Assembly: GCA_000002445.1 (NCBI GenBank)
Contig: CH464491.1
Span: 2,688,001-2,752,000, forward strand
Source of the DNA: Trypanosoma brucei
Lineage: Eukaryota
Length of the DNA: 64,000 bases
Direction: 5' to 3'
The notes under the pieces: generated by a model
What the model was told of the DNA's origin: nothing
Database searches by the model: none
What the model saw: the letters and a program-made list of their open reading frames with translations, nothing else
Made by a program: the position numbers and the translations under genes
Shown here: one piece after another, positions 29,801 to 60,907 of the stretch
How positions within the stretch are numbered: position 1 is the first letter of the stretch
Layout: each line of letters begins with the position of its first letter

Positions 29801-30084
29801 CTGTATAGCTGGTAATTACATGTGTAGTAGACTACCGGGTGATGAGAAGGGAATGCGTGTACTGTACAACTTTAATTACGTATTTGTGTATGTTTACACG
29901 TGCACGCGGATACATTTTTATTTTATGCTTTTTTTTTCCTTCCCTTTTCATCCCTTCTCATCTGTGCGTCCCATGACGCGTACCAAAACTACATATGTGG
30001 TACATATGATGGACGGATTGGGAGAAGAAAATTCGGTGTGTTTTGTTACGGTGTTTTTCCCCCTTTTTTTATTTTTATTTTTTC

Positions 30085-32409
30085 ATGGAAGGGAGTATGA
30101 GTGGGAAGGGCTTTGTATCAACCCGACTGCTGCAAGCGGTACCTGCGGGGGGTGCAGTCCCAGCACCAAGATCCATTCCGTCCTTCAAACCGGTTCCGTT
30201 CAAGCGAGAAAAGTTTCTCTCTATAAAAACTCGAACTGCCGAAACGTTCTTCGGTACGCGCGACCGACTATTCCGGCGCTCTACCGCTATTGTTGAGCAG
30301 ATGAGTGATATGAGAAGGAAAGAAAACCTATCATCTTCCGTGAGTGGTAGTGGTGGAAATGTCCTCAATGGTTGTGAAGGAATATACATTGGGGCTCCCC
30401 TTACACCACAAATGACGGATGAGATTAACGCGTGGAACAGAAATCTTCAAGGTCTTGAGGGGATGCAAGGATTTGTTCTCACTGACGAGTTAGTGTACGA
30501 GGCTGTCTCTAGGAACATTCGCATGGGTGCATTCCCGCATGCGCTGAATTGGTTGGAAAAGGCTGCGCGCGAAAAGCGGCTTCCCGTGCCAACTTTAGTG
30601 CTGAAGGACCTGCGCATGTTCTTTGATTTTGTGCTTTCTGTGCTCCCCGCGAGCAACGCAACCTTCTCAACTGCAGTCGACATGCTGCTCGAGGAAACGG
30701 CTTCGACTATGTTGCCTGAAGTATCGACCGATGGGTCGCGTGGCGGGGAAAATGAAGATGAAGTCACTTGCGGTGAGGTGTGCGAAAACTCGCCAATACG
30801 ACTTGCAAGCACTTCACCTTTCGCACTCCACATTTTCAGAGAATTATTCGCGCCCGTCTGGGGTTGCCTGCTGCGTCTTGGTCTGCTTCCTACGGTTGCG
30901 TCTGCGCAAAAGGAGTGGGATCGTTTGCAGGGAAACAAGGTCTCTGACGGTGTATTGTCAGGTTTGATTGAGCGTATAGACTTTGATGGGTGCGCACCCT
31001 CCAACAGAGAGAGTAGTGGCACTAACGTGGGAAAGGTGCCTGCGGCACGGCAAGCGTATATGGAACTCCTTCTATCTCTTGCACAATGCGCTGCCGAGGC
31101 GAAAGAGGTATATGTCCTTTTACACCTTCAATCTACCTTCTGTGCATTATTTGCTGAACCAAGGGATGAGGGCCGCTCTCACCCCTCGGTTTCTTCTGAC
31201 GATTCCCGCCTTCAGCGTTGGAGGTTGCGACGGAATGTTTGGTGCAATTCGGATGATGGCAGGGAATACTTTCACCGCTTTGCGAACGATTTCCTTTCTT
31301 CTGTATATTATGGCCGCCAGCTCTACCAAAGCGAAGTCTCGCTAAATAATTGTGTTCGACATTTGTCCAGTACCGTGCCCGGGGTGCAAGGAACAGAAGA
31401 GCTGGGAGATATGCGGAACGATGGACGGGATGTTGGAGGTGCCGACGATGAACAACGGCAGCCAAACAATCCGGATGCTGACGAAGATGGCAAGTCAAGG
31501 TTGTTTACGGTGGAGGAGGCCGTGGAAAATGTATTGTGGGAGGTGATGAGCCATGAGGCGTCACTGTTCCCCGATGCACTCGCATACGCCGGACTTCTGC
31601 TTCGACGTACTGTGACTGATACAACTCTTCCTACTTCCGCAACAAACCCTCGCTTCAGTCGGGCGGAGCTTGAGTGGATGCAGCTTCATAGTGACATGTG
31701 CCGTCGCTCCCACGGTGGTGAGGACGTGACAGCCGAGTTACTGAATCTCATTCGCCCAGGTTCCACGGTAACACGAGGACTGGCACTGAATGCTACATGT
31801 CTCGAGGATAAACAGTGTCTTCTGGGACTGGTGGTTGAGACAGTTATTACGATTGCTGGGGTGTCGAGGCTAGCGGGCCCTCAACGAGGTGACCTGATTA
31901 TTAAGGCTACCACGCAGTTGCTTCTGTGTATGAGGGAGGTTGAATGTCAGGGAGGACAGCGGTTGATGCTCCCTCAGTACAGTGTAGGATGCGTAATGGT
32001 ATCCTTGGTGCCCTTACTTCGTACCACGCTTGAATCTGCTTTCAAAAGTTTAAAACAAACTGAGTGTTGTGAGGGCCACATTAAACTCTCATTTTCCCGC
32101 AGAGATGTTCTGCGTATTGTGAGGGGTCTGATGCCGAGTATATTGGAGCAACGAGTGGTATTTGGTAACGTGTACAGCGGAGTGATAACAGTTCTGACGC
32201 TGGCAGAAATGTGGGACGAAGTGATGCAGGTACTGAAACATTTAGACCAGCCACATGTGTCAGATGGTGAGGATGGTGACCATCAGGGAATAAGCAGCCT
32301 GTTGGTGGATCAGCGGGTATGGGCTTGGTTGTTTCGCCGTGCTCGCGATGCTGGTCAGGTGGAAATTTGTTTGTTCCTGCGCAGTCGGCGTGAGAAGTTG
32401 TTTTACTAG
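30085..32409 (+). CDS. hypothetical protein, 774 aa
   Basis: ORF-track start 30043 is TTG inside a polypyrimidine tract; first ATG 30085 (MEGSMSGKG...) immediately follows the poly-Y tract; long uninterrupted frame. Confidence 0.5.
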   Translation: MEGSMSGKGFVSTRLLQAVPAGGAVPAPRSIPSFKPVPFKREKFLSIKTRTAETFFGTRDRLFRRSTAIVEQMSDMRRKENLSSSVSGSGGNVLNGCEGIYIGAPLTPQMTDEINAWNRNLQGLEGMQGFVLTDELVYEAVSRNIRMGAFPHALNWLEKAAREKRLPVPTLVLKDLRMFFDFVLSVLPASNATFSTAVDMLLEETASTMLPEVSTDGSRGGENEDEVTCGEVCENSPIRLASTSPFALHIFRELFAPVWGCLLRLGLLPTVASAQKEWDRLQGNKVSDGVLSGLIERIDFDGCAPSNRESSGTNVGKVPAARQAYMELLLSLAQCAAEAKEVYVLLHLQSTFCALFAEPRDEGRSHPSVSSDDSRLQRWRLRRNVWCNSDDGREYFHRFANDFLSSVYYGRQLYQSEVSLNNCVRHLSSTVPGVQGTEELGDMRNDGRDVGGADDEQRQPNNPDADEDGKSRLFTVEEAVENVLWEVMSHEASLFPDALAYAGLLLRRTVTDTTLPTSATNPRFSRAELEWMQLHSDMCRRSHGGEDVTAELLNLIRPGSTVTRGLALNATCLEDKQCLLGLVVETVITIAGVSRLAGPQRGDLIIKATTQLLLCMREVECQGGQRLMLPQYSVGCVMVSLVPLLRTTLESAFKSLKQTECCEGHIKLSFSRRDVLRIVRGLMPSILEQRVVFGNVYSGVITVLTLAEMWDEVMQVLKHLDQPHVSDGEDGDHQGISSLLVDQRVWAWLFRRARDAGQVEICLFLRSRREKLFY

Positions 32410-36478: not shown

Positions 36479-38185
36479 ATGCGAAACGATAAGTCGATGC
36501 CGCACACGGCGAACCCTTCCCCGATCCCGCCCTCCAATGGCGGTACGATTTGTTCTGACCACAAGTCGCTCGAGCTTTTCAACGCCGCGCATCCAAACCC
36601 AACAGGGCAGCAAATTGAAGTTGCACCAATTGCATTTCTCACAACAAATCGCGTTGTATCTGCCCTGAAGAAAGCAATAGGGCGTTTGGAGCTGCTGAAC
36701 CTGCTCGACACTACGGCTCCGGACGATGGCTACAATGCTTCTCCATTCGTGACCGAACAACGAACAACCAATAGTCTATTCGCCAAAGAAGCGAAATCAA
36801 CTACCGCCGACACGGTACCACGTAAAGCCGCGTTGATCGCCGGACTTGGGGGTGAGACATCCCACCGAGAAATAAGGGAGATAAATCACGCCCTTCAGGT
36901 AGCTGCGACAAAACAACGCACCGTCCGACCCACCGTTGGGGACCTTGTACAAGAACAGCAGGCCCTTGAACAAAAGTATGGCGAACTCCTACAAAAGGTG
37001 GGGCGTGTCAATCCTAGTAGGAGCGGTCCGACCTTAGACCCGAGCTGCTTTGCTTCCGTGCAAGACTTGGATAAACTGGCTCTCATAGAGGAGCTTAAGC
37101 AAACCTCCAAGCGGCTACGAGAACATAATAAGGCCCTTTTCACACGTCTTAAGGACAATCCCAATGACTCCGACAACTGGAAGAAGGTTGGCAACGAGCG
37201 GTTAGAGTTGATAGAGCTACTCAAATCTGTCATTAAAGAGCTCACTGTGGGGTACGCCAGTGGTCGGACGCAGTCTGCAAGAACCGGCCTTTTGGCTAGA
37301 CGCTACAGTCGAGGACCGAGGCTGAGTGGGACAAATGACAGTTCTGGTACGGAGGCGCGAGAAACAACTCTATCAACTGCCATGAACCGGTTTGGTAGTT
37401 CGGTACAACTGAAACGAGCTGGGCGGAGCCCTTCAGCCGCGCGCATTCCGCTTACCTCCACCTTTGAAAAGTTTGCCAAACTAGTTTCAGATGAGCAGAG
37501 TGCTCAGTTGTGGGCGAGTGAGCTTGTGCTGAAGGAAAAAGAACTGAATCAAAATGTGAAACAGCTTCAGCAAGAGCTCAAGACCCAGAAATTATTGAGG
37601 GAGAAGGAAGTCACCGAGTTAAAGTTGCGTGTCGCCGAGCTGAGGCAGAAACTGCGTCAAGAGAAAAAACTAACTAAGCAGCGCGGTGATATGGTGAGAG
37701 CGGCCGCCGAAGCTGCGCACGAAGCAATGCAGCGTGCTGCAGATGATAAGGCGCATATTGTATTGGATGGCATGCAGGCAAACAGAGCTACGGATGTGAT
37801 GGAAGAACGCGCGCATGCCGCGTTCAAGGAGCATCTCTTAGAACGTACTGCTGCGATGGATGATCTTGCTATGCAGTGGGACAGGAAGAATCAAAATGAG
37901 GTGAAGCGTGCTGAGGCACGTAAGATTGATCTGGAGCAAATGCGGCAGCAGTGCGCCGAGCGTTTAGAGAAGGCCCGCAAAGACAAGGAGGTGGAGCTGG
38001 AAAAGAAAGCAGAGAGAGATGCTGAAAAGGAAAAACTGGAAGCTGCAAAAGTAGCGGAGGAGCTGCGGAGGAATACGGTTTATGAAGCCGTGTCAAAGAT
38101 ACAGTCGGCGATTCGGGCGATGTTCACGCGGAAAGCGGTTGCTGTATTGAGGAAGAAAGCTAGCAAGCATAAGCGCAAGACCTGA
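36479..38185 (+). CDS. coiled-coil protein (hypothetical), C-terminal IQ-like motif
   Basis: 568 aa; extended heptad-like charged regions (LKEKELNQNVKQLQQELKTQKLLREKEVTELKLRVAELRQKLRQEKK...); ends IQSAIRAMFTRKAVAVLRKKASKHKRKT. Confidence 0.5.
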   Translation: MRNDKSMPHTANPSPIPPSNGGTICSDHKSLELFNAAHPNPTGQQIEVAPIAFLTTNRVVSALKKAIGRLELLNLLDTTAPDDGYNASPFVTEQRTTNSLFAKEAKSTTADTVPRKAALIAGLGGETSHREIREINHALQVAATKQRTVRPTVGDLVQEQQALEQKYGELLQKVGRVNPSRSGPTLDPSCFASVQDLDKLALIEELKQTSKRLREHNKALFTRLKDNPNDSDNWKKVGNERLELIELLKSVIKELTVGYASGRTQSARTGLLARRYSRGPRLSGTNDSSGTEARETTLSTAMNRFGSSVQLKRAGRSPSAARIPLTSTFEKFAKLVSDEQSAQLWASELVLKEKELNQNVKQLQQELKTQKLLREKEVTELKLRVAELRQKLRQEKKLTKQRGDMVRAAAEAAHEAMQRAADDKAHIVLDGMQANRATDVMEERAHAAFKEHLLERTAAMDDLAMQWDRKNQNEVKRAEARKIDLEQMRQQCAERLEKARKDKEVELEKKAERDAEKEKLEAAKVAEELRRNTVYEAVSKIQSAIRAMFTRKAVAVLRKKASKHKRKT

Positions 38186-42922: not shown

Positions 42923-43567
42923 ATATTGGCGACGATCGATAATATGGGAAACAGTTGCAATGGCTTAACCCCAAAAAGCGAAACAAACCGAAAATGATGA
43001 AAGCAGGGTCATGTTTTATTAATGGTCGTTGGATTCTCGGGCCCACCTGAGTGTACACGATTGCGCGGGAACTTCTTTTGGATTTGTGAGAGGCGGATAA
43101 ATTGTCCGAATACCCAGCGCTAACACGGCTATATCTTCCTCTTAGAGTAGTTCTACTGCGGCACCACTGCTCTGATATTTATGTTTCTCTACTTACTTTT
43201 TGCTGTTACTCGACCTCCCCATTTTCACTTGTTTGTGAGTAACCACAACAGGGCAATAGCTTCACAAGATGCAATTGCAGACGATTGGCGGACGTTTCTT
43301 GCATCAAATCGTCAAAAATCCAGCACAGCAGGTGTACAGTTTTTGACAAAGGCTTGTGTATTCTCCTACAACCCCTCGCATAACATCTGACTGTGCAACC
43401 GCGGTTGTAAGCAACGTGGCTCTGTATCACCTTTCCGCCTATAATTAGGTGTTAACAAAAGTTCTCAGTGCTCCTTTGAGGCAAAAGCGAGAGGCAACAG
43501 TTGAAGGGGGAAGGTATATGGAACCTTCGGACGTGTGATTCTTGAGGTATCAGTTGTGGCTAACCGC

Positions 43568-43640
43568 ATCCTTCTTTCTTTTCTTCTTTTGTTGCTGTTT
43601 CGGTCAACACCAAAGTTGTTTTTTATTTTTTTTTCTGCAC
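43568..43640 (+). promoter_or_regulatory. polypyrimidine tract upstream of arrestin-domain gene
   Basis: atccttctttcttttcttcttttgttgctgtttcgg...gttgttttttatttttttttctgcactgtt preceding ATG 43749. Confidence 0.5.
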
Positions 43641-43748
43641 TGTTCGGTGAACGGTATTTTGTTAAACTTTAGGAGTGACGGAAGAAAAAAAGTATTTGCA
43701 TTTGTTAAGGAGGGAAGGGAAAGACAAAACACGAAAAAGGTAAAGGTA

Positions 43749-45707
43749 ATGAAGACTCATCGTGCCGCTAAGCATGTAACAGCGCATCGTATACTGTTGG
43801 AGCGGTTATCTTTACAACCCGGTGAGGTGCTCAGAGGAATTGTAGAGGTTTGGGTGGATGCACCGCTGGGATATTCGGTACTGGAGGTTGTGCTGCTTGG
43901 TCAGGAGTTTACGCGTCTGAAGAGCTCCTTCGGAAAAATCCTTGGCAAAGATGCTGCCAAAGCCACATATTACAGGCAGCGCGTCGTCGTAGCGGGATGT
44001 CCCGGCGAGAATTCGCAGGTATCCGTTGTTTCGGAAGGTGGCGGGAATCCGGAGGGTGCCAATAGCGATGAGTGGAGTGACTTCAATCGATCACCGTCGG
44101 TAAGTGATGTGGAATTAGCGGGTATTCAATCGTCAGGACTGATGCCCGGAACCTACACATTTCCCTTCAAAGTGAGGCTCCCCTCCGCACTACCGCCTAC
44201 TCATGAGTACCATATACGAGGAAGTGCTTCAAGGCTGAAATACACTGTAACATCGACGCTGCTCTCGAGAGGCCGTCTGCTCTCAACAACCGATGCACCA
44301 TTCAGTGTTAAGGCACTCCCGCTGGATGAGTCCCGTTGGATGAATGCGTACTTAAAAACCGTTCCAATGTTTGATGGAAACGTTCTTCTTGTCAGTGACG
44401 CTGCCTCTGGGACCGAAGAAGACCGGTGGGCATCTTTGAGCGGGCTTCAAGGGACTAACTGCATTTGCATGAATCACAACATGCCGCTTTACGCACCCAA
44501 CGAATGTAGTGGCTCCAGTGATTCCGTGACCGATGCCGGTGGGCTCTTAACGACTACCCCGTTCGGTGCACCGCACCCTGCGTCGATGGATCCATTAAGG
44601 TCTCAGCTGGTAAAACCTTCAGTGAATAACTGGTTGGATGGTGCCAGCGGCGTCAACACCAATGAGGATGCAACCGAGGACCAGAAGAGTGGGCATGGCA
44701 CTGAGGACGCACTACAACCGCGGGCATCTGCGAATGAGTCGGAACAAGGGATGAGTGTTTTTCAACAAGCTGATTCTTGTTCTGGTAATAAAAGGGGGAC
44801 TCATCGTGGTGGTGACGATTCGAAGGGCGGTGGTCAAGCAGCAGCTCCTGGAGCCAGCGATGCTCAGAATAATGTTGATGCCGCCGCGTGCCTCAATCAA
44901 CTCGTGCAGCGTGTCCGTCAAGATGCGAGGTGGGAACATCGTCTAGAGGTACCAATTGAAGGGCTATTTGGCAGGGGAAGTGTTACCATCACGCTATCTT
45001 TCGGGCGTGTGGTATTTACCGGGGGCACAACTGTCCGTTTCCATGGGTTAGTTGACAACGAACGGGGATTATCTAATGTTTTGATGATTAATTTTTCTCT
45101 TGTTACCCATTATCAAATGAACTCACTCATAGAAACCCGTCATACCAGAAATGTTATTTCGGAGTGTTCACTGCGCCAGGTCGTTAAACGCGGGGAGGCG
45201 GCTCGCATACCTCTCTGTACGCTAGAGGTGCCCCAAAACACTTCACCGACTGCTGTAACGTCGAACTGCAGCTGCCGTACGTTTCTTGATGTTGAAGTTT
45301 TCTCTATGCATGGCCCCGGCACGCGGTCCGGATCGGCAAGAACGGAGCTGTTGGTTGTGGACTCGCTCGCTCGTGACGAAAAATCTTCCGACCGAAAAGG
45401 GAGATGGTCAAACTATTTTCAATGTTATGACCCTTTAAGGGGACAAAGTCGTATAGACATTGTTTCATCGTATGTGCTAAGTGGAAAGATAAATGTCATC
45501 AAGAAGGATGCGTGTAACGGTAATGGGGAGCTACTGCAACCGCCAGAGAAACCCAGTCGTTACTGCAAAACGTGGAAACACACTTTCCGCCCCCAACTTG
45601 ACTTTGTGAATGCAACGTATTATCCGGACGAGTCCAGCGGTCACAACTCCCGGGGCATCAACCCCCTCCAGAGCCTTTACTACACAGAAGGTTCATTAAC
45701 TGAGTAG
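43749..45707 (+). CDS. arrestin-domain containing protein with long C-terminal extension
   Basis: ORF N-terminus upstream of 43749 translates a poly-Y tract (FFLFFFCCCF), so start moved to ATG 43749; PGEVLRGIVEVWVDAPL...VLEVVLLGQEF and PGTYTFPFKVRLPSALPPT are arrestin-N/ARRDC-like motifs. Confidence 0.5.
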   Translation: MKTHRAAKHVTAHRILLERLSLQPGEVLRGIVEVWVDAPLGYSVLEVVLLGQEFTRLKSSFGKILGKDAAKATYYRQRVVVAGCPGENSQVSVVSEGGGNPEGANSDEWSDFNRSPSVSDVELAGIQSSGLMPGTYTFPFKVRLPSALPPTHEYHIRGSASRLKYTVTSTLLSRGRLLSTTDAPFSVKALPLDESRWMNAYLKTVPMFDGNVLLVSDAASGTEEDRWASLSGLQGTNCICMNHNMPLYAPNECSGSSDSVTDAGGLLTTTPFGAPHPASMDPLRSQLVKPSVNNWLDGASGVNTNEDATEDQKSGHGTEDALQPRASANESEQGMSVFQQADSCSGNKRGTHRGGDDSKGGGQAAAPGASDAQNNVDAAACLNQLVQRVRQDARWEHRLEVPIEGLFGRGSVTITLSFGRVVFTGGTTVRFHGLVDNERGLSNVLMINFSLVTHYQMNSLIETRHTRNVISECSLRQVVKRGEAARIPLCTLEVPQNTSPTAVTSNCSCRTFLDVEVFSMHGPGTRSGSARTELLVVDSLARDEKSSDRKGRWSNYFQCYDPLRGQSRIDIVSSYVLSGKINVIKKDACNGNGELLQPPEKPSRYCKTWKHTFRPQLDFVNATYYPDESSGHNSRGINPLQSLYYTEGSLTE

Positions 45708-50544: not shown

Positions 50545-51042
50545 CTGAGATGTACGCGCGCGGATTGTTGGCGGCGCCTGCAGTCTCAGCAACAAATGTG
50601 AAGGAGACTTTGCGGTTCGATGCGGCCACAACCAAACTGCGTCCCGACTCTTAATGCATCTAAACAATCGATATAAAGTAAGAAAAAATAAGTAAGCGAT
50701 AATGCCGGTTGCGAGTAAAAGAATAATCACACGCCGGTGTGTGAGTGGTGGGGGAAGTTCACAACAAACGAAGACAATGTTGGGATGCGTGTCTTTAGTT
50801 CATTAAGCGTTGACGATTGTGAAACACGCGCTTTTCTGCGAACTAGTGTTGTGTTTTCGTATGCATGTTCGGCCCTCTTTCCTTCAAGAACCAATTTTGT
50901 CACTACTGTTTTTTCTCTTTATCCATCCACACCAGAACTGCCCTTGGTATCCACCTGATTTTTTTTTTGTGTGAACATCAACTCCTTACTCACACGGGCA
51001 TGTGCTTACGTACGTCTGCGCAAATCACGCTTCAGTAGGTGT

Positions 51043-52860
51043 ATGTTTAGTGAGTCTTTGTACTCGTTTCACACAGTCTCTGCTGACAAAAACCAAAGCA
51101 ACAACCAGAAGGGCTTGTTGGAGGATGAGCCATGTCAATACTCAAATGGAAACAATGAGCCTGGAAGTAAAGCAAAAGGGAACAGGGATCATGAACTTGT
51201 TGGAAGGTGGGGGAGCCCACGACACGGTGGAGGCGTTGGGGTTAGAATCAGCACGTCCGTTTCTGGGAAATTTGACAAACGATGTCCAAAACCTAGCGAA
51301 GGGTACGTGCCACCACACTATGTTGGTTTACCGAAATATTGGTTACCAAATGAGACCTTTCATCCGGAAATAAACCCCCGAAGTCAACGCATCACCAAGT
51401 GGGAAAACTATGTGGGAAATAGTGAGCGCTACCATGCGATTTGCGAGCTCGTGAAGGAGTTGTGGCTTGCGAACGCGCCTGTCAACGGGAACGAGATGGG
51501 CATCGATGGTGTGAACGGTGCCCTACGGCAACTGGGTATCGAGGTGTGGTCTCCGCTCGCAGAGAATTTTTTCTCGGAGCTATCGTTAAATGAAACAAAT
51601 GGACAGCGACTTGTGGGATACAGTGCCTTCAAACGCGTATTTGTTAGGGAACTTCAGGCCCTCTTAACTCCTTCATCAGGCACCAATAGATTGGATGGTG
51701 AGGGTGTCCCAAGGGGTGACACTTGCGGTGTGCGGTTATGTGACCCCAATACGATATGTTCAAGTATACAAACGCTTAGAAGACATCAAAGCACACAGGG
51801 AGCATCAAGCAAAAATACAGTGTCGTCTGCTGCAGCTTCCTCTTCGTTCCGGCGCACTGCCGCTGGTGAACCTTCGGTTGGGTGGCCGGGCATATCCGAT
51901 ATTTGCTCCGCACTCTCTGGCCACGATCTCTTGGGTGTAACTGCGGCCGACGTGTACCTCAGTCCTGATAGTAGGAGACGGTCATCCATCCTGGGTTCGT
52001 CATCTACAGGTACTGATGCACTGCAACGGGTGATGGGACGGGGCAACCAGGGCTTGTACCCTTTGCCCATCGGTGCAAACGGTAAAACACTGGACGGGGT
52101 GTCTGTAGTGAGCAGAATGTCTATCGCCAATTCCTGTGAAGGTGACTCCTGCACACCCGTTGCTCGTTCCAGACGATCGTCTTCGCATCGGAGTGCACTG
52201 GCGGTTGTTACGAGTCCCAACAAGTGCGAAGGGAGAAAGTTGCGAAGGGCGGATGAGGGCTCTCCAGAGGCCGCAGGTGCCCAAAGGAGGGGTAGGTCAA
52301 CCACGAAAACGAAAGGAGGTAAACAAAAAACCCGTCAGAAGTCTAGAGGCTCGTCCGCTACACCACGGCGACCTTCGCGGAAAAGCAGCTCGAAGAGGAG
52401 AAACCGTAGCGGCTCGAAGAGGAGGAACCGTAGCGGCTCAAAGAGGAGGAACCGTAGCAGCAGTAGCCGTGGTAGGTTGCCGCAAGAGTGCGAGGGACGT
52501 GACGATTCAAGCACTTCCCTTTCATCTGTGAGAATTGTGAAGAATCCTACCGGGACGCAGCGGGACGGATCAGTGGTAGAAGACGAGAGCCATTACGGCC
52601 CCTGCGATGCAGCGGGAAGGGGGTCGTATCGTTCACGCGTAATGACCCTTCACCGTTGGCGGAGAACTTCACCACCTGTGTTATGCGTGGATGTAAGGAT
52701 GCCCGACGACAAGAGGGGTACCTTTGATGTTTACAGGGGTGACACTGTGGAGGGGCTTGTGGGCGACTTCGCGAGTGCGTACAACTTGAGTGATAGGTTA
52801 AGCAAACGCCTGGAGAGGTTGCTGGCAAGGAAGCTTGAGTACTACAAATGGAAACTTTGA
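51043..52860 (+). CDS. hypothetical protein with S/R/K-rich tract containing perfect tandem octapeptide repeats
   Basis: ORF-track start 50971 is GTG; first ATG 51043; (SKRRNRSG)x3 encoded by 24-nt tandem repeats at ~52390-52461. Confidence 0.45.
   Translation: MFSESLYSFHTVSADKNQSNNQKGLLEDEPCQYSNGNNEPGSKAKGNRDHELVGRWGSPRHGGGVGVRISTSVSGKFDKRCPKPSEGYVPPHYVGLPKYWLPNETFHPEINPRSQRITKWENYVGNSERYHAICELVKELWLANAPVNGNEMGIDGVNGALRQLGIEVWSPLAENFFSELSLNETNGQRLVGYSAFKRVFVRELQALLTPSSGTNRLDGEGVPRGDTCGVRLCDPNTICSSIQTLRRHQSTQGASSKNTVSSAAASSSFRRTAAGEPSVGWPGISDICSALSGHDLLGVTAADVYLSPDSRRRSSILGSSSTGTDALQRVMGRGNQGLYPLPIGANGKTLDGVSVVSRMSIANSCEGDSCTPVARSRRSSSHRSALAVVTSPNKCEGRKLRRADEGSPEAAGAQRRGRSTTKTKGGKQKTRQKSRGSSATPRRPSRKSSSKRRNRSGSKRRNRSGSKRRNRSSSSRGRLPQECEGRDDSSTSLSSVRIVKNPTGTQRDGSVVEDESHYGPCDAAGRGSYRSRVMTLHRWRRTSPPVLCVDVRMPDDKRGTFDVYRGDTVEGLVGDFASAYNLSDRLSKRLERLLARKLEYYKWKL
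52390..52461 (+). repeat. 3 x 24-nt in-frame tandem repeat (tcgaagaggag[a/g]aaccgtagcggc) inside CDS
   Basis: Directly visible; encodes SKRRNRSG SKRRNRSG SKRRNRSS. Confidence 0.9.
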
Positions 52861-53473
52861 TGTGAAAAAATAGCTTGAAACTGTACTTGTGGGGAAACTG
52901 AAGTTCCCAGTGATTATAGATAAGGTTGAGGGTACGCGGTCACACACGACTCTCCCTCCTTTATAAAAAATGTTCATAGGGAGGAGGCGGCCGTCCAATA
53001 TATAGAGAGGCATAGATATGGTCGCTTTTAGCTGTGAGTACGGTTTATAAAACTATATCTGTACGTATGCTCTTCTCCTGTAACACTGAATGATGCTTGC
53101 TTGTCAATCATTAATATCTAAGCAGCCTCTGGGCGTGCTCTAAGTAGGATGTTTCAGTTTATTGGTTTACGACTCTTCCTTGAATCAAAAAATATATGAA
53201 AGTGTCTTTAGGGACCGTGTTTGTGTGTGTGGGGGGGGGAATCTGTCTGTTCAAGGTGAATGGCGCTCCGCACGTTCTCCTTACCCTTTTGCCGAACTGT
53301 TTCTCTTCCTCTTCTTCACTTCTTTTTAAACATGTGCCTCCATCACCGGCAATTTACTAAAGAGAGACGCTTCCTTTTACCGTAGGATATACCATAGCTG
53401 CGGAGTGGAAGCGGTCCGGTATAAGTGGGGTGGAGTGAGAGATAGGATAGGCGACAACCACTTAACACTTGCA

Positions 53474-55063
53474 ATGACTAGCAGGAAGCGGCCGCGGGAA
53501 GCAGCTACATATCATGACATTCGTTTGATGTGTCAGCACGCGAGGGAACGGGAGGCGTTGCTACGCACGGGGCCGTTCTTTGTGGAGCGCATTCTGGCGC
53601 CCCGTCTTGTGGGTATTCATTACAGAGTGGACGGTTTATTGACCGACCCCAGTCGGTTGAGCCGTGACAGCGAGGTGCGTGTGCCACTAAAGTGGCGGCA
53701 GCGGTGCCAAGGACTACTTGCACTACCTCAACACGCACAAGTAGAGGGTTTAAAACGACATTTTGGTTCGATGAACGTCGATGATTTCCGGACTGTGATC
53801 CCGTCACCAGTGTATGTCGCGACGAGGGGTGAGAGGAGTGGCATAAATGTTGCGGTAAGGGCACTAGCCCCTGTAACAGACGTGGTGTTTGACATGGAGG
53901 AGCAATTTGCCGTTGTATGCCAGCGGCGCCGCTTCTCTACCTACGCAATTAGCAGTTGGATGGAGAGTTTAGATGTACCTTCCATTCCTGGTGCTGCAGT
54001 CCCTCTAGTTTCAGTTGAGCCGCAAGGCTTCTCGAGTCTCGGGTTTGCCCTCTCAGCGTTGCAATTTTTGTCATCTTCACTTCATGTTATTGCCGGTTAC
54101 CATAGAGCCCCAGTGGTGGATATCTTTGACTTGGAGAATGTTGACGAGGAGACGAGTGAGCCCCAGCAGCGGTTCAACCTGACGGATGTGAAGGAAAACG
54201 GAAACGTTGAGGATGGTTCAAGCGCCTACGCAAACGATGTTATGCCAATGGACAGATACGTTAGTTTGGGGGCGCTGTCATCAGGGTTGTCCGTGTGGTT
54301 AGACAGTCGTAGCGGAAAGGCGGAGGCATGTACTGGAGTCTTAACGCGCCAATACACTATTGGGGCCCACAACCGCCATACGGGCCGCCGTGATCCACTC
54401 GCATGCGTAACCTCCTTGTGCCAAGGCAACCCTGCGAACATACTTCTAGGAACGGAGGCTGGAGCGTTGCAGCTGTGGGACGTGCGTTGCGCCAGAGAGT
54501 GCGTGGCCCAACATATGACATCGGCGTCAATCTGTCGCCTCCATCCATCGTACTCATATCCCCTGCGCAACGTTGTGTGGCTTAACACGTTAGCGGGCTG
54601 CGTGGAAGCTGTAAGCGTTGGACAGAGCGACATGGAGCTGTTGGCACGACGTCTGTGCCCGGACTTCCAGCGTTCATCCTCAACGTTTCATTTACCGCCA
54701 CCACGTCTCTCCTTCATGGAGTCCTCTGGGGTTGTGGCTTGTCCACACATATCTTCCGGCAAACTGTTGCTTTATGATGGGAGTTCCTTGGTAAAACAGC
54801 CGAACAACTCTCGCACACAGTTATCTTCATATAATAGAGGTGTGGATGGAAAGGACAACGAGTATGAAAACGGGCATTGTAGCAATTTTGGTGGTTTTCT
54901 TCGGGAGGCATCCTCTTCCAGTGAGGAAAGTGGAGAGCGTGAAATTCCGCTGCTGAATGCTCTGCCCTCTGAGGCTAATGCGCTCGTGACTGCATGCACC
55001 GTGTGGAGCAACCGCGATATGTTCGTGCTTGGGGATGAAACAGGCCGAGTGCAGCTCCTGTAA
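53474..55063 (+). CDS. hypothetical protein (possible degenerate WD-like segments)
   Basis: ORF-track start 53405 is GTG; ATG 53474; 529 aa; short WD-like snippets (LGTEAGALQLWDVRC; VLGDETGRVQLL); no firm domain. Confidence 0.45.
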   Translation: MTSRKRPREAATYHDIRLMCQHAREREALLRTGPFFVERILAPRLVGIHYRVDGLLTDPSRLSRDSEVRVPLKWRQRCQGLLALPQHAQVEGLKRHFGSMNVDDFRTVIPSPVYVATRGERSGINVAVRALAPVTDVVFDMEEQFAVVCQRRRFSTYAISSWMESLDVPSIPGAAVPLVSVEPQGFSSLGFALSALQFLSSSLHVIAGYHRAPVVDIFDLENVDEETSEPQQRFNLTDVKENGNVEDGSSAYANDVMPMDRYVSLGALSSGLSVWLDSRSGKAEACTGVLTRQYTIGAHNRHTGRRDPLACVTSLCQGNPANILLGTEAGALQLWDVRCARECVAQHMTSASICRLHPSYSYPLRNVVWLNTLAGCVEAVSVGQSDMELLARRLCPDFQRSSSTFHLPPPRLSFMESSGVVACPHISSGKLLLYDGSSLVKQPNNSRTQLSSYNRGVDGKDNEYENGHCSNFGGFLREASSSSEESGEREIPLLNALPSEANALVTACTVWSNRDMFVLGDETGRVQLL

Positions 55064-55417
55064 TATACAAACTCGTAGAGAGGTAGATGGGCATTGTCTC
55101 CCGTTGTCTGTCTTACCATCATTTTTCTTCACGCATATGTCACTACTTTTTTATACACCAGTCGGTGGCGATTGGTTATGTTGTCACGCACGCTCTTTAT
55201 ACATAGGAGCGCCTTGTTACTTGTACATTCACTTTGCATGAACACACGTGTGTGTGGTAAAAAAAAAAGCTATGGGGATGCGACAAGTTTATTTGTGGTG
55301 ATGTTGACAACAGTGATAATAGTGTCAGGGTTATGTATTGTTCTTTCCGTGCCATTTACCATCTGGGACTTAGGTAGGCTTAACTAAAAATTACTCAGAG
55401 AGGAACGTTAAACGCAG

Positions 55418-56284
55418 ATGCTCCGTCGCAGTGGTTGCTTCCTCAACATGGGGCTGGGGGACGAGTACGTGAAAAAGGTGTTCAACAGCGTGGCCAGCAA
55501 GTATGATATGATGAACGATGTTCTTTCGCTTGGCATACACCGCCTGTGGAAGCGCGAATTTGTCCGTGACTACGTACGACCGTGCCCTGGTGGATCGTAC
55601 GTTGACGTCGCTGGAGGTACTGGCGATATTGCCTTTCGCATAATTGATGAAGTGCGCCAGTTGGAACGGGGACTTCCAGGCCTTACACCTCCCGACTTTC
55701 GAGGAGTTGGTGTGACGGTTGTGGACATTAATGAACAGATGGTTCACGAGGGAGAGGCCCGGGCAGCACGGGAAGGATATGATGGTTTGGAGTGGATTGT
55801 CGCCAGCGGGGAGGAGCTTCCGTTGGATGACATGCAGTTCGATGGCTACACGGTATCGTTTGGCCTGCGGAATTTCAGTGACAGGCCGAAAGCCCTTCGA
55901 GAAGCGCATCGAGTGCTGAAAGTGGGTGGTGTACTGAGCGTGCTGGAGTTTAGCAAAGTCACGTGCTCGCTGCTGCGCGTGCCTTACGACGTGTGGTCTT
56001 ACGGTTTCATTCCACAAGCCGGCCGGATTTTGGCAAATGAGGAAAGCTATAGGTACCTTGTGGATAGCATTAGAGCCTTTCCCGATCAGGAGACCCTCGC
56101 AGAGATGATTCGGGAGGCGGGATTCGGTTACGTGAGGTATGATAATCTCTCTGGCGGAATCGCATGCGTACACACCGCAGTAAAAACGGAGGCTGTTCCA
56201 ATACATAAACCTAAGTCAGAGGTAGAAAACGCTATGGCGCAACAGGAGCGAGTGGTAGAAGACAGTAAAGTGGGGGCTGCATAG
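55418..56284 (+). CDS. COQ5: 2-methoxy-6-polyprenyl-1,4-benzoquinol methylase (UbiE/COQ5 family SAM methyltransferase)
   Basis: YVKKVFNSVASKYDMMNDVLSLGIHRLWKR (UbiE N-terminal signature Y-D-x-M-N-D-x-x-S-x-G-x-H-R-x-W-K); SAM motif I VDVAGGTGDIAF; post-I and motif II regions present. Confidence 0.85.
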   Translation: MLRRSGCFLNMGLGDEYVKKVFNSVASKYDMMNDVLSLGIHRLWKREFVRDYVRPCPGGSYVDVAGGTGDIAFRIIDEVRQLERGLPGLTPPDFRGVGVTVVDINEQMVHEGEARAAREGYDGLEWIVASGEELPLDDMQFDGYTVSFGLRNFSDRPKALREAHRVLKVGGVLSVLEFSKVTCSLLRVPYDVWSYGFIPQAGRILANEESYRYLVDSIRAFPDQETLAEMIREAGFGYVRYDNLSGGIACVHTAVKTEAVPIHKPKSEVENAMAQQERVVEDSKVGAA

Positions 56285-57124: not shown

Positions 57125-60100
57125 ATGTTCAATGTCTCACCAGCGAGTCGTGACCGCGTGCGTTCTGAGAGTCAGCGCACCCCGCGCCCCCGCAGCTCAC
57201 TCTCCATGCCACGTGAATTGTCCTACACACCCGCCATATCTTCCATTCCTTCGAGCCTGCACACACCGTTTATTCAAAAGTGCTACGTTCAGGGGGACAA
57301 TTCCACTGAGGGTCAGCAGCAGCAGCAGCAGCAACCGCCTGATCACATGACTGTCGTATTTGAAAGTGATAACATGCAACTGACAACAACAAGTTTGCTC
57401 GGGAAAGGTGGGTTTGGTCGAGTGTACGTGGCCCAGTCAAGTGGCGGGGAGTTGTGCGCCTTGAAAGTATCGTCGAAACAAATGACGGATGGTGACTGGG
57501 AGCGGTTGCGCAAAGAGGTGGCGCTTATGAGTCACTTCTCGCAGCACCCCAACGTGGTGAAGCTAATTGCTGCCGGTCGAGATAGGAATTTTGCGTATGT
57601 GGCGATGGAGTGCTGTGCGAGTCGGTCGCTGCATGACATTATTAACAAACATGGTCTCGAAGTGCCAGAAATTTTGTGGGTCGGCTATGCACTCATTGAT
57701 ACAATCGCTTTTCTGCACGCCAAGGGTTGCATACACCGGGACCTAAAGCCACAGAACCTTTTGTTTGACTTCGATGGAAACCTGAAGATAAGTGATTTTG
57801 GACTTTCAAGCAACGTTACCGAATCTGAACCACGGAAGACGGTTGCCGGGACGGCAATGTATATGGCACCCGAAATTGCTGGCGCAGTGTATAAACGCAT
57901 GACCAACGATAACAGCTCTAGTTCACTGCGCTACGGTCAGGAGGTTGACACATGGAGCATTGGTGTGGTGTTGTACGTCATGTTGACGCGCATGAACCCG
58001 TACGCGCAGGCGCTTGAAAATGAAGGTGCACACGAGATGAACAAGACGCAGAAGACACTCACCTTATTTAGTGCGGTTGCGGGGGCCGCTTGGCACTGGC
58101 CGGCGGGTTGGAGAGGCGACAAGGAACTAAGTGATGTTGTCAATCAAATACTGCATCGCAATCCAGCTCAGCGAGCCACGCTACAAGATATACTGCAGCA
58201 CCCTGTTTGGGACCGACGGCCGCTTTCGTGTCCGCTCACGCTGCTGCAAAAACTGAATTTAGTCGAGCGACGACCGTTTACCCGAACCGGAGCGGTAGGC
58301 CGCTCATGCAGCCGTGCTCCTGAAGGTATGCAGCCCCAATATGCCACCAAAACGGCAGAAGTTGTGCTCCTAGAGGGGCTAAACCAAGTGATTCAAGTCG
58401 AAGAGAGCACTCGTACTCAACTCGTCCTTGAAAGCAATGAGGTGATAAATCTCATATTCGGAACCCTGAAGCTGCATGCCTCAGAGGCTAACGGAAGGCG
58501 GTTTATTGTGATAGATGAGAAAGGTTGCCGCAAGAACATCGAAGACATGTTGCTGACCACTCGCCCGGTGCGTTGTCGCAGCCATGAGTTAGTGTCGACA
58601 GCGGTGTGTGCAAAACAGCCCAAACGTGGAACAAGGGTCGGTTCCTCATTAAGGCCGCAAAGGGAATCCAGTGTTTTGTTGGCGGGTCCATTAGCTTTCG
58701 GCCAGACTCAAGATGCTGGAGAGATTGTCCGCGCAGCGTCTGACAGGTACGCTGTGGTGTTCAGTGGACGTGAAACCTCCACACGGTGGTCTCTCCGCAA
58801 TGTCATCTCACTCCCTCGAGAACTTAACGCTGCAATTGAGGAGGTTACGTGCATTAACAAACACCAAATGAAGAAACTTATCAAAATACCCCTGGGTTAT
58901 GTCGGGTTTGATTGCAACGTATGCGACAGTGCGATTGATGATATTAGTATCGAGAAACCAGTTTTTCGATGTCATAAGTGCGACTACGACCTCTGCATGA
59001 ATTGTGCTTACGAGGGGAAAATAAAGGACGTTAACTTTGTTTGTGTTTCATGCATGAAAAAGTTTGCGTCCTCTTCAAAGCTCGAAGCACATTCAGCTAA
59101 GTGCCGTGGCCCAAGCATGAGCCCCTCGGCACGCTGCTCTTCCCGTCGAAACACGATGCTTTGGGAGCAATTGGAAAACGAGGGCGGAAGTCTGCTGGAT
59201 ATCCGGTTGCCTACCGAAACTAAACCGCGACGTAGTGCCCGTACATCTTGCCGTACCTCCGGTGGTCGAGAGTCGTCGGGTGGTCGCATTAGTATTGGTG
59301 ACAGCTATGTACCAGGACCGGAGGACTTAGGCACAATGGTAGTAGCGCACCGTGACGCCAATTTCCCTGAAATGCCAAAATTCTCCACTCAGAGCGATAG
59401 CAAGGCAAGCTCCCCTTTCGGTGAGAAGGAGGGCGCTGATAAAAATTATAGGCAGAGTTTCTCCTTTGAACTTCCCCCTCAGGTTCGGCTCTCTAAACAT
59501 CGTAGGGATAAGGGAGCGGAACCACGGAGTTCGGAAGAATTGCGCGAGATTGTAGATGAGCTTACGCCAACACCTAAAAGGGTGCGTACAGAAGCACGGC
59601 AGAATTCTTGTGAGCCATATGCTCCCCAAGTGAATGACGCAGGCTTGGTTGTCGGCATTGCTGCGCGGTCTCGTGTTGAAAGGGAGGGAAGTCTGCGTGG
59701 GGAACAGCAATCCCGTAACGTCGTAGTAATCCGTGCAGACAACGCGGCGAAACCACAAGACCTGCGAAAGCAGTCTCAGGTTCCTCGAAGCGCTTCGTCA
59801 AGTCAACCTGGTAGTAGGATGGAGTCGCAAGCTATCGATACTCTCTCGAAGCCGGCCCCTAAGAATGTGGCAGTACGAGAGTATCGGTCCGCGTCCGGCC
59901 AGCGCGATCCACTGGTGCCGAGAACGTCACTGCCTTCAGCTCAGACTGGAGAAATTTTCGGTGCACCGCCTCTCCCACGAATCGTCACCTCCGGGAGGTC
60001 TAGCGTACCACGTTCAATGTCGTACACATTGCCATCTGCTGCTGGTGTTGCGCGACGCCAGACATCCCAGCCTTTAGTGAACTTACTTGGAGGGGTCCCT

Positions 60101-60907
60101 GTCGGGGCGTATGGGGGCGGATCTTTCAACCCCGGCGAGCGCAATGCTTCCATCAGCAACACCAACAGAACTGTTGGACCGGGGCAAGGTGGGACGGCGT
60201 ACCTGGCCCTTCCTCGGGACAAGCAAAACCGGGATCGCTTTGTTGATGACTTCCTAAGCGGGGCGTGGGTAAGGGTTTACTCTTTCATTGGTTCTGAAGT
60301 TGTTGTGATGTATTATTCTGTGCAACCCGGTAGGTACGGTGCCCTCTTCCCCACAGAGGAGGGAGCAGCTACGGCAGTTCTGGACATACACTCTAAGTTG
60401 GTGCTATACGTGCCGCGTATGGATAAGGATACCGTTACTCGGACCCAGTGCCATCCGAATGTTCTAAGTTTCTTTCAAGACGAAATACGCATTCTACCCG
60501 CTACAAGTGCAGAGAAAACCCTCGGTGGTGTGCTTCGTGGCATAATGGGTTTCGTTAGTGAACTTACGAAATGTCGTGGGGAGGGAGAAAAGTATGCAGC
60601 AGCGCAGTCTGCATACATTCACCAACGTGAGAAGGGTGCGGTCCCCGCGGGCACAAAGTTCGCGTATGTGAGAAAGGCGTTCCCAGATCCAGCAGGCTCT
60701 TTCGTGTTGTTCCGTTTGTCCAACCTGCGGTCGCAGGTAGTTTTTAACAACGCACTCCTAGACATCCGTTGGCAAAGCGACAAGAACCATAATGTTGGGC
60801 AAAAGTACTACGTGCGGCCCAACGGCGAGGCCGGACCATTTACTGCGGAGCACTCAGGTATCCTCAATCACGTAAATTTGGTGATGCGCAACGTCTACCG
60901 GAAATGA
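57125..60907 (+). CDS. Polo-like-kinase-type Ser/Thr protein kinase with internal ZZ and C2HC zinc fingers and polo-box-like C-terminus
   Basis: LLGKGGFGRVYVA, VAIK-like ALKVSSK, AMECCASRSL (PLK L-E-L-C-x-R-R-S-L), HRDLKPQNLL, ISDFGLS, PRKTVAGTAMYMAPE (PLK R-K-K-T-L-C-G-T-P-N-Y-I-A-P-E); ZZ finger CNVCDSAIDD...FRCHKCDYDLCMNCAYEG; C-terminal FRLSNLRSQVVFNNALLDIRW resembles polo-box [21 protein letters not shown]. Confidence 0.8.
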   Translation: MFNVSPASRDRVRSESQRTPRPRSSLSMPRELSYTPAISSIPSSLHTPFIQKCYVQGDNSTEGQQQQQQQPPDHMTVVFESDNMQLTTTSLLGKGGFGRVYVAQSSGGELCALKVSSKQMTDGDWERLRKEVALMSHFSQHPNVVKLIAAGRDRNFAYVAMECCASRSLHDIINKHGLEVPEILWVGYALIDTIAFLHAKGCIHRDLKPQNLLFDFDGNLKISDFGLSSNVTESEPRKTVAGTAMYMAPEIAGAVYKRMTNDNSSSSLRYGQEVDTWSIGVVLYVMLTRMNPYAQALENEGAHEMNKTQKTLTLFSAVAGAAWHWPAGWRGDKELSDVVNQILHRNPAQRATLQDILQHPVWDRRPLSCPLTLLQKLNLVERRPFTRTGAVGRSCSRAPEGMQPQYATKTAEVVLLEGLNQVIQVEESTRTQLVLESNEVINLIFGTLKLHASEANGRRFIVIDEKGCRKNIEDMLLTTRPVRCRSHELVSTAVCAKQPKRGTRVGSSLRPQRESSVLLAGPLAFGQTQDAGEIVRAASDRYAVVFSGRETSTRWSLRNVISLPRELNAAIEEVTCINKHQMKKLIKIPLGYVGFDCNVCDSAIDDISIEKPVFRCHKCDYDLCMNCAYEGKIKDVNFVCVSCMKKFASSSKLEAHSAKCRGPSMSPSARCSSRRNTMLWEQLENEGGSLLDIRLPTETKPRRSARTSCRTSGGRESSGGRISIGDSYVPGPEDLGTMVVAHRDANFPEMPKFSTQSDSKASSPFGEKEGADKNYRQSFSFELPPQVRLSKHRRDKGAEPRSSEELREIVDELTPTPKRVRTEARQNSCEPYAPQVNDAGLVVGIAARSRVEREGSLRGEQQSRNVVVIRADNAAKPQDLRKQSQVPRSASSSQPGSRMESQAIDTLSKPAPKNVAVREYRSASGQRDPLVPRTSLPSAQTGEIFGAPPLPRIVTSGRSSVPRSMSYTLPSAAGVARRQTSQPLVNLLGGVPVGAYGGGSFNPGERNASISNTNRTVGPGQGGTAYLALPRDKQNRDRFVDDFLSGAWVRVYSFIGSEVVVMYYSVQPGRYGALFPTEEGAATAVLDIHSKLVLYVPRMDKDTVTRTQCHPNVLSFFQDEIRILPATSAEKTLGGVLRGIMGFVSELTKCRGEGEKYAAAQSAYIHQREKGAVPAGTKFAYVRKAFPDPAGSFVLFRLSNLRSQVVFNNALLDIRWQSDKNHNVGQKYYVRPNGEAGPFTAEHSGILNHVNLVMRNVYRK
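57314..57334 (+). repeat. (CAG)7 coding polyglutamine run
   Basis: cagcagcagcagcagcagcaa inside kinase CDS. Confidence 0.9.

What the first reader, a model, noticed from the sequence alone, without database searches (positions are those of the whole stretch)
57125..60907. Unusual Polo-like kinase paralog: PLK catalytic domain, then ZZ and C2HC zinc fingers, then a cryptic polo-box-like C-terminus
The kinase domain carries PLK-diagnostic residues (AMECCASRSL like L-E-L-C-R-R-R-S-L; PRKTVAGTAMYMAPE like R-K-K-T-L-C-G-T-P-N-Y-I-A-P-E). The middle of the protein has a ZZ-type finger (CNVCDSAIDD...FRCHKCDYDLCMNCAYEG) and an adjacent C-x2-C-x12-H-x3-C finger, which are not found in canonical PLKs. 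The C-terminal ~220 aa contain FRLSNLRSQVVFNNALLDIRW and WVRVYSFIGSEVVVMYY...GALFPTEEGAATAVL, which resemble polo-box motifs ([37 protein letters not shown]...VGVLFNDSTRLIL). A 1260-aa PLK-like kinase with zinc fingers inserted would be a lineage-specific architecture distinct from the canonical ~770-aa trypanosome PLK.
Basis: partly seen in the sequence, partly recalled or inferred. Interest (0 to 1): 0.7.

Follow-up and report, generated by a model that had tools for sequence, protein, structure and literature searches.

The report
Trypanosoma brucei kinetochore kinase KKT2

The parts
57125..60907 (+). Complete KKT2 coding sequence (1260 aa plus stop), Tb927.11.10520
   Evidence: ORF listing. 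Exact-sequence match to XP_829116.1/EAN80004.1/Q383M7 of T. brucei brucei TREU927; its 1260-aa T. equiperdum cluster mate is named 'kinetoplastid kinetochore protein 2'. The TriTrypDB id is given in PMC8178753.
57314..57334 (+). PolyQ tract (aa 64-70) in the low-complexity N-terminal extension; its length varies between T. brucei subspecies
   Evidence: There are 7 Q here and 6 Q in the 1259-aa gambiense and equiperdum alleles.
57386..58207 (+). Protein kinase domain (aa 88-361). Landmarks: GKGGFG at 93, catalytic Lys K114, gatekeeper M161, HRD at 204, DFG at 224, APE at 248, and a ~13-aa insert after APE.
   Evidence: Pfam Pkinase E=9.5e-57. Motif positions. The insert is visible in the alignment. 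M161 is the published gatekeeper used to make analog-sensitive alleles.
58643..58648 (+). S507/S508, the published CLK1 (KKT10) phosphorylation site needed for KKT2 function
   Evidence: Both residues are Ser in this sequence. Function from PMC8262961.
58808..59014 (+). Centromere-localization (CL) domain (aa 562-630), a two-zinc module with the landmark residues C576, C597, C600, C616 and C619 and the invariant D622. It is ZZ-like but circularly permuted.
   Evidence: Matches B. saltans KKT2 central domain 6TLY at E=4e-29. The landmark residues are present. The mutational, structural and H3-binding data are published. Pfam ZZ (E=0.076) and C1_2 (E=0.0018) both fall below their cutoffs.
59042..59104 (+). 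C2H2-type zinc finger with a Cys as the fourth ligand (C640, C643, H656, C660). Published work shows it is dispensable for localization and growth.
   Evidence: Pattern verified. It aligns with the finger of 6TLY. Classical C2H2 fold and the C640A/C643A rescue are in PMC8178753.
59156..60193 (+). Ser/Arg/Gly/Pro-rich linker, presumably disordered (aa 678-1023). [quoted passage not shown]
   Evidence: Composition. No Pfam domain was found there. Fragment localization is in PMC8178753. Disorder is inferred from composition, not tested.
60194..60904 (+). Divergent polo-box domain, DPB (aa 1024-1260), with W1048 and Y1064. It is the KKT1-binding module.

Best explanation
The ORF encodes KKT2, a constitutive inner-kinetochore protein kinase found only in kinetoplastids. 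The working model comes from published experiments on this same protein. The central CL domain, a circularly permuted ZZ-like two-zinc module built around the invariant Asp622, targets the protein to centromeric chromatin. According to a 2026 preprint, it does so by binding the free, unmethylated alpha-amino terminus of histone H3. [quoted passage not shown] They bind the C-terminal part of KKT1, which in turn binds KKT6, and this starts the assembly cascade of the transiently recruited kinetochore proteins. The 672-1030 linker also contributes to this. The N-terminal kinase is catalytically active, phosphorylates KKT8, and is needed for accurate chromosome segregation, but not for the localization of KKT2 itself, KKT1 or KKT14. 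KKT2 is in turn regulated by CLK1/KKT10, which phosphorylates S508. In evolutionary terms it is thought to descend, together with KKT3 and KKT20, from a PLK-like ancestor that acquired the Cys-rich insert. Shown here: the identity of the protein, the domain boundaries, the presence of every published functional residue, and the polo-box-like fold of the C-terminus. Taken from the literature: localization, binding partners, kinase substrates and H3 binding. Inferred: descent from PLK.
For: The sequence is an exact match to T. brucei TREU927 XP_829116.1/Q383M7, and its cluster mate is named kinetoplastid kinetochore protein 2. The C-terminus matches 8A0J at E=1e-95 and the central domain matches 6TLY at E=4e-29. 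Both entries are identified as KKT2 structures in the papers that deposited them. My computed identity to 8A0J is 61.9%, against the published 61.6% for TbKKT2 1024-1260. All published landmark residues are present at the published numbers: M161, S507, S508, C576, C597, C600, D622, C640, C643, W1048 and Y1064. Pfam finds Pkinase at E=9.5e-57. Fold searches with an independent, low-confidence AF2 model recover KKT2 DPB, then KKT3 DPB, then PLK1, PLK2 and Cdc5 polo boxes, with PLK4/ZYG-1 polo boxes lower down. Functional data come (DPB-KKT1, kinase activity, KKT8; CL domain, localization; CLK1 and S508; H3 N-terminus).
Against: Nothing argues against the identification. The caveats concern the mechanism. 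H3 N-terminus recognition rests on one 2026 preprint. KKT1 still localizes when KKT2 alone is depleted, which implies redundancy with KKT3. The PLK ancestry of the kinase domain is not supported by overall similarity or by my crude tree. Pfam POLO_box does not hit, and hhalign against the PLK1 PBD gives E=0.83. My AF2 model is poor (pLDDT 50.6, and TM 0.42 even to 8A0J), so the fold evidence produced here only supports the published crystal structure and could not stand alone.
Confidence: 0.97

Rival explanations
1. It is a true functional PLK paralog. On this reading it has a PLK-type catalytic domain and a phosphopeptide-binding polo-box domain, and acts like TbPLK at the basal body or flagellum attachment zone, as the first reader suggested testing.
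For: UniRef's automatic name is 'Serine/threonine-protein kinase PLK'. The hinge ME-C-C-ASRSL resembles PLK1's LE-L-C-RRRSL. Among the retrieved kinases, the activation-loop pattern [RK][RK]T-x(1,2)-GT-x2-[YF]-x-[AP]PE is otherwise seen only in the PLK-like hits P0013 and P0077, and in my typed human PLK1. The C-terminus has a polo-box fold.
Against: Published localization is at the kinetochore/centromere throughout the cell cycle. The literature states that TbPLK is not known to localize at kinetochores. The DPB is reported to lack the phosphopeptide-binding residues, and it binds E. coli-made KKT1 without phosphorylation. Pfam POLO_box does not hit. The kinase domain scores lower against PLK1 than against Aurora A, Chk1 or CIPK and has HRDLKPQN rather than HRDLKLGN.
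Confidence: 0.02
2. Evolutionary rival: the protein is not a PLK descendant. A kinase of CAMK/Aurora-like or independent origin was fused to polo boxes and a zinc module by domain shuffling, so 'PLK paralog' is a misnomer even though the C-terminus has a polo-box fold.
For: The best non-kinetoplastid kinase hits are CIPK/CAMKL, Chk1, CDPK and Aurora, all at about 93-109 bits and 29-37% identity, with PLKs no better. In the NJ bootstrap the sister group contains no PLK-like sequence in 158 of 200 replicates. The literature calls the kinase unaffiliated.
Against: A kinase-N / polo-box-C arrangement is otherwise known only in PLKs, and this is the published argument for common ancestry. The hinge and activation-loop motifs are shared with PLKs. 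My tree is crude: NJ with Kimura distances, a panel biased towards top hits, and long branches.
Confidence: 0.2

Closest known systems
KKT2 (kinetoplastid kinetochore protein 2), Tb927.11.10520, T. brucei
   Same: Identical sequence, so the domains, residues and function are all the same.
   Different: Nothing differs. The GenBank/RefSeq record for TREU927 still reads 'protein kinase, putative', which may be why the name is not obvious from that annotation.
KKT3 (paralog) and KKT20 (kinase-less relative)
   Different: Identity to 8A0K in the fold searches is 22%; the paper gives 25% for the DPB pair. KKT3 DPB does not bind KKT1, KKT3 kinase activity is dispensable in procyclic T. brucei, and the KKT3 CL domain alone localizes constitutively.
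Polo-like kinases (PLK1-3, Cdc5, TbPLK)
   Different: There is no Pfam POLO_box match. The phosphopeptide-pincer residues are reported absent. A ~660-aa insert carrying a ZZ-like CL domain and a C2H2 finger lies between the kinase and the polo boxes. The kinase domain is not PLK-like overall. The protein is a structural, constitutive kinetochore component rather than a transient regulator.
Histone H3-binding ZZ domains (for example p300 ZZ, PDB 6DS6)
   Same: It is a two-zinc cross-braced module with an invariant Asp (D622), reported to bind the H3 N-terminus. Pfam ZZ is a weak sub-threshold match over aa 595-630.

Membership tests
KKT2 (kinetoplastid kinetochore protein 2) | Sequence identity with the T. 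brucei Tb927.11.10520 product (1260 aa) | tested here: met
   The exact-sequence look-up finds XP_829116.1/EAN80004.1/Q383M7. The 1260-aa T. equiperdum cluster member is named KKT2. The DPB is given as 1024-1260 in the papers.
KKT2 (kinetoplastid kinetochore protein 2) | Three conserved modules in order: N-terminal kinase, central CL plus C2H2 zinc domain, C-terminal divergent polo boxes | tested here: met
   Pkinase at aa 88-361. 6TLY matches aa 569-664 at E=4e-29. 8A0J matches aa 1025-1260 at E=1e-95.
KKT2 (kinetoplastid kinetochore protein 2) | Published functional residues at the published positions (M161, S507/S508, C576, C597, C600, D622, C640, C643, W1048, Y1064) | tested here: met
   All are present. 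The only offset is the catalytic Lys: K114 here versus 'K113' in PMC8262961, which a one-residue polyQ polymorphism can explain.
KKT2 (kinetoplastid kinetochore protein 2) | Constitutive kinetochore/centromere localization and KKT1 binding | not testable with these tools
   This is experimental, and is taken from PMC4821238, PMC8178753 and PMC9727816.
Polo-like kinase (PLK) family | Sequence match to the POLO_box profile (Pfam PF00659) | tested here: not met
   There is no POLO_box hit even at E<=10. hhalign of an 8-sequence DPB profile against the validated human PLK1 PBD gives E=0.83.
Polo-like kinase (PLK) family | Tandem polo-box fold at the C-terminus | tested here: met
   [not shown]
Polo-like kinase (PLK) family | Kinase domain groups with PLK kinase domains | tested here: not met
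In the NJ bootstrap the sister group is PLK-like only in 14 of 200 replicates. The top PDB hits are CDPK1 and Aurora. The tree is crude, so this shows an absence of support rather than proof of exclusion.
Polo-like kinase (PLK) family | PLK-type local kinase motifs (catalytic loop HRDLKLGN; hinge E-x-C-x-R-x-S-L; T-loop KKT-x-CGTPNY) | tested here: inconclusive
   The catalytic loop is the generic HRDLKPQN, so that motif is not met. The hinge ECCASRSL and the T-loop RKTVAGTAMYMAPE are PLK-like, and among the 73 retrieved kinases they are shared only with PLK-like hits.
Polo-like kinase (PLK) family | Phosphopeptide-binding pincer residues (PLK1 His538/Lys540) | tested here: not met
This is my reading of the sequence, and the alignment is not statistically validated. 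The literature states that the key residues are missing in KKT2/3 DPB.
ZZ-type zinc finger (Pfam PF00569) | Profile match above the gathering threshold | tested here: not met
   ZZ scores 13.3 bits against a cutoff of 21.4 (E=0.076). C1_2 scores 19 against 26.
ZZ-type zinc finger (Pfam PF00569) | Two-zinc cross-braced fold with the invariant H3-binding Asp | not tested
   D622 is present. The fold similarity with circular permutation and the H3 N-terminus binding come from the 2026 preprint. I had no structure-prediction jobs left to test this here.
Classical C2H2-type zinc finger | C-x2-C-x12-H-x3-5-[HC] ligand spacing and beta-beta-alpha fold | tested here: met
The spacing C640-x2-C643-x12-H656-x3-C660 is verified. 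The segment aligns with the finger in 6TLY, whose fold is reported as classical C2H2.

The most novel reading that the evidence does not exclude
The most novel reading left open is small. The kinase-domain hinge (M161-E-C-C-A-S-R-S-L) and the activation-loop R-K-T motif may be vestigial PLK signatures. That would be the first evidence at kinase-domain level for the hypothesis that KKT2/KKT3 descend from a PLK; until now that hypothesis has been argued only from the domain architecture and the polo boxes. I did not find these motifs discussed in the papers I read. Separately, the borderline hit of the central domain to the LYAR zinc finger (1wjv, E=3.4e-4) could point to a second, unreported relative of the CL/C2H2 module.
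Probability: 0.25. Interest if true: 0.2.

Novelty: already known. Interest (0 to 1): 0.1.

Why it matters
KKT2 matters biologically. It is a constitutively centromere-bound protein kinase in organisms that lack CENP-A and the canonical kinetochore, and it lies at the base of an independently evolved chromosome-segregation machine. It is also under study as a drug target in trypanosomes and Leishmania. As a scan finding it adds nothing new, because the gene, its domain architecture, two ortholog domain structures, its binding partners and its PLK-ancestry hypothesis were published between 2016 and 2026. What is worth recording is that reading the sequence alone recovered the polo-box and ZZ-like assignments. 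Pfam misses both, and the field needed iterated profile searches, crystallography and, for the ZZ link, until 2026 to establish them.

Full report
OBSERVATION. The window holds an uninterrupted ORF at 57125..60907 on the + strand that encodes 1260 aa. It lies in a run of same-strand genes that includes an M14 peptidase-like protein, an RCC1-repeat protein, a GH31 glycosidase, Utp21 and a COQ5/UbiE methyltransferase. This is the usual look of a trypanosomatid polycistronic unit.

IDENTITY. An exact-sequence look-up finds this very protein as T. brucei brucei TREU927 XP_829116.1 / EAN80004.1 / UniProt Q383M7, on a 5.26-Mb contig. Its 90% cluster holds a 1260-aa T. equiperdum protein and a 1259-aa T. 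b. equiperdum protein, both named "kinetoplastid kinetochore protein 2", and a 1259-aa T. b. gambiense protein. A sequence search of the PDB matches aa 1025-1260 to 8A0J at E=1e-95 and aa 569-664 to 6TLY at E=2e-27, or 4e-29 with the sub-query. [quoted passage not shown] My identity to 8A0J is 61.9%, and the paper states 61.6% between TcoKKT2 1030-1265 and TbKKT2 1024-1260. PMC8178753 gives the TriTrypDB id as Tb927.11.10520. Every residue the literature has mutated or mapped in TbKKT2 is present at the published number: gatekeeper M161, S507/S508, C576, C597, C600, D622, C640, C643, W1048 and Y1064. The gene is KKT2.

DOMAINS. Pfam finds only the kinase domain (Pkinase, aa 88-361, E=9.5e-57). 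The zinc region gives sub-threshold matches: C1_2 at 19 bits against a cutoff of 26, and ZZ at 13.3 bits against 21.4. No POLO_box match appears even at E<=10. The central region, aa 562-677, consists of the centromere-localization (CL) domain and a finger with the spacing C640-x2-C643-x12-H656-x3-C660. In 6TLY the CL domain binds two zinc ions, and the second module has a classical C2H2-type fold. [quoted passage not shown] Even mono-methylation of the alpha-amino group abolishes that binding.

KINASE DOMAIN. The claim of "PLK-diagnostic residues" holds only in part. In overall similarity the domain is equidistant from many families. The top PDB hits are CDPK1 and Aurora B at about 99 bits. 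The top database hits outside kinetoplastids are CIPK/CAMKL, Chk1, one JGI "polo-like kinase 1" and CAMK, all at 93-109 bits and 29-37% identity. In a local panel, CIPK scores 109 bits, Chk1 108, JGI-PLK1 105.6, Aurora A 99 and human PLK1 81.7. A crude NJ bootstrap puts the KKT2 kinase next to PLK-like sequences only in 14 of 200 replicates, and next to a group with no PLK-like sequence in 158 of 200. The catalytic loop is the generic HRDLKPQN rather than PLK's HRDLKLGN. Two motifs do point the other way. The hinge M-E-C-C-A-S-R-S-L resembles PLK1's L-E-L-C-R-R-R-S-L. The activation-loop pattern [RK][RK]T-x(1,2)-GT-x2-[YF]-x-[AP]PE occurs, among the 73 retrieved kinases, only in KKT2 orthologs and the two PLK-like hits P0013 and P0077. 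The literature describes the kinase as having no clear affiliation to any known group, and infers PLK ancestry from the kinase-N / polo-box-C architecture.

MECHANISM (from the literature on this same protein). KKT2 localizes constitutively at kinetochores. Its central domain, the 672-1030 fragment and the DPB can each localize when expressed alone. The CL mutants C576A and D622A fail to support growth, whereas the C2H2 finger mutants C640A/C643A rescue it. The DPB binds the C-terminal part of KKT1 directly and without phosphorylation, and KKT1 binds KKT6. W1048A and Y1064A abolish localization of the isolated DPB. Kinase activity, tested with analog-sensitive M161A, is needed for accurate chromosome segregation but not for localization of KKT2, KKT1 or KKT14, and KKT2 phosphorylates KKT8. 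[quoted passage not shown] Work on Leishmania in 2026 confirms that the kinase activity is required for cell-cycle progression.

VERDICT. The "PLK catalytic domain" claim is overstated, and the implied novelty is absent. The gene is KKT2, described in a series of papers from 2016 to 2026 with two ortholog domain crystal structures. Novelty: already known. Interest as a discovery: low.

Noticed in passing
window 57314-57334 (aa 64-70) and aa 114: The polyQ tract has 7 Q in TREU927 and in one T. equiperdum allele, but 6 Q in the 1259-aa T. b. gambiense and T. b. equiperdum alleles. This one-residue shift may explain why PMC8262961 calls the catalytic lysine K113 when it is K114 in this sequence. 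That paper's S507/S508 numbering, however, fits the 1260-aa form.
   Followed up: partly
window 58895-59074 (aa 591-650): In the PDB sequence search, the central zinc region hits the LYAR zinc-finger structure 1wjv at E=3.4e-4, which is well above the p300 (ZZ-containing) chains at E 0.4-0.6. A possible relationship of the CL/C2H2 module to LYAR-type fingers is not mentioned in the papers I read.
   Followed up: no
window 57125-60907: Database naming is inconsistent. GenBank/RefSeq for TREU927 says 'protein kinase, putative', UniRef's automatic name is 'Serine/threonine-protein kinase PLK', and only the T. equiperdum records carry 'kinetoplastid kinetochore protein 2'.
   Followed up: yes
window 55391-56206 (-) and 55418-56284 (+): A 271-aa ORF lies antisense within the COQ5/UbiE methyltransferase gene (Ubie_methyltran, E=4e-93). 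It is most likely a shadow ORF with no coding significance.
   Followed up: partly
window 1-64000: All the other ORFs of at least 250 aa, apart from the shadow ORF, are on the + strand, and cumulative GC skew rises steadily, as expected for one trypanosomatid polycistronic unit. Five large ORFs (30043-32409, 36479-38185, 43542-45707, 50971-52860, 53405-55063) have no Pfam match at E<=1e-5.
   Followed up: no
window 57869-57907 (about aa 249-261): Directly after the APE motif the kinase domain has a ~13-residue insert (IAGAVYKRMTNDNSSSSLRY) that is missing from PLK, Aurora, CIPK and Chk1 sequences in the alignment. The kinetoplastid fragment P0005 shares part of it.
   Followed up: no
[not shown]
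   Followed up: no
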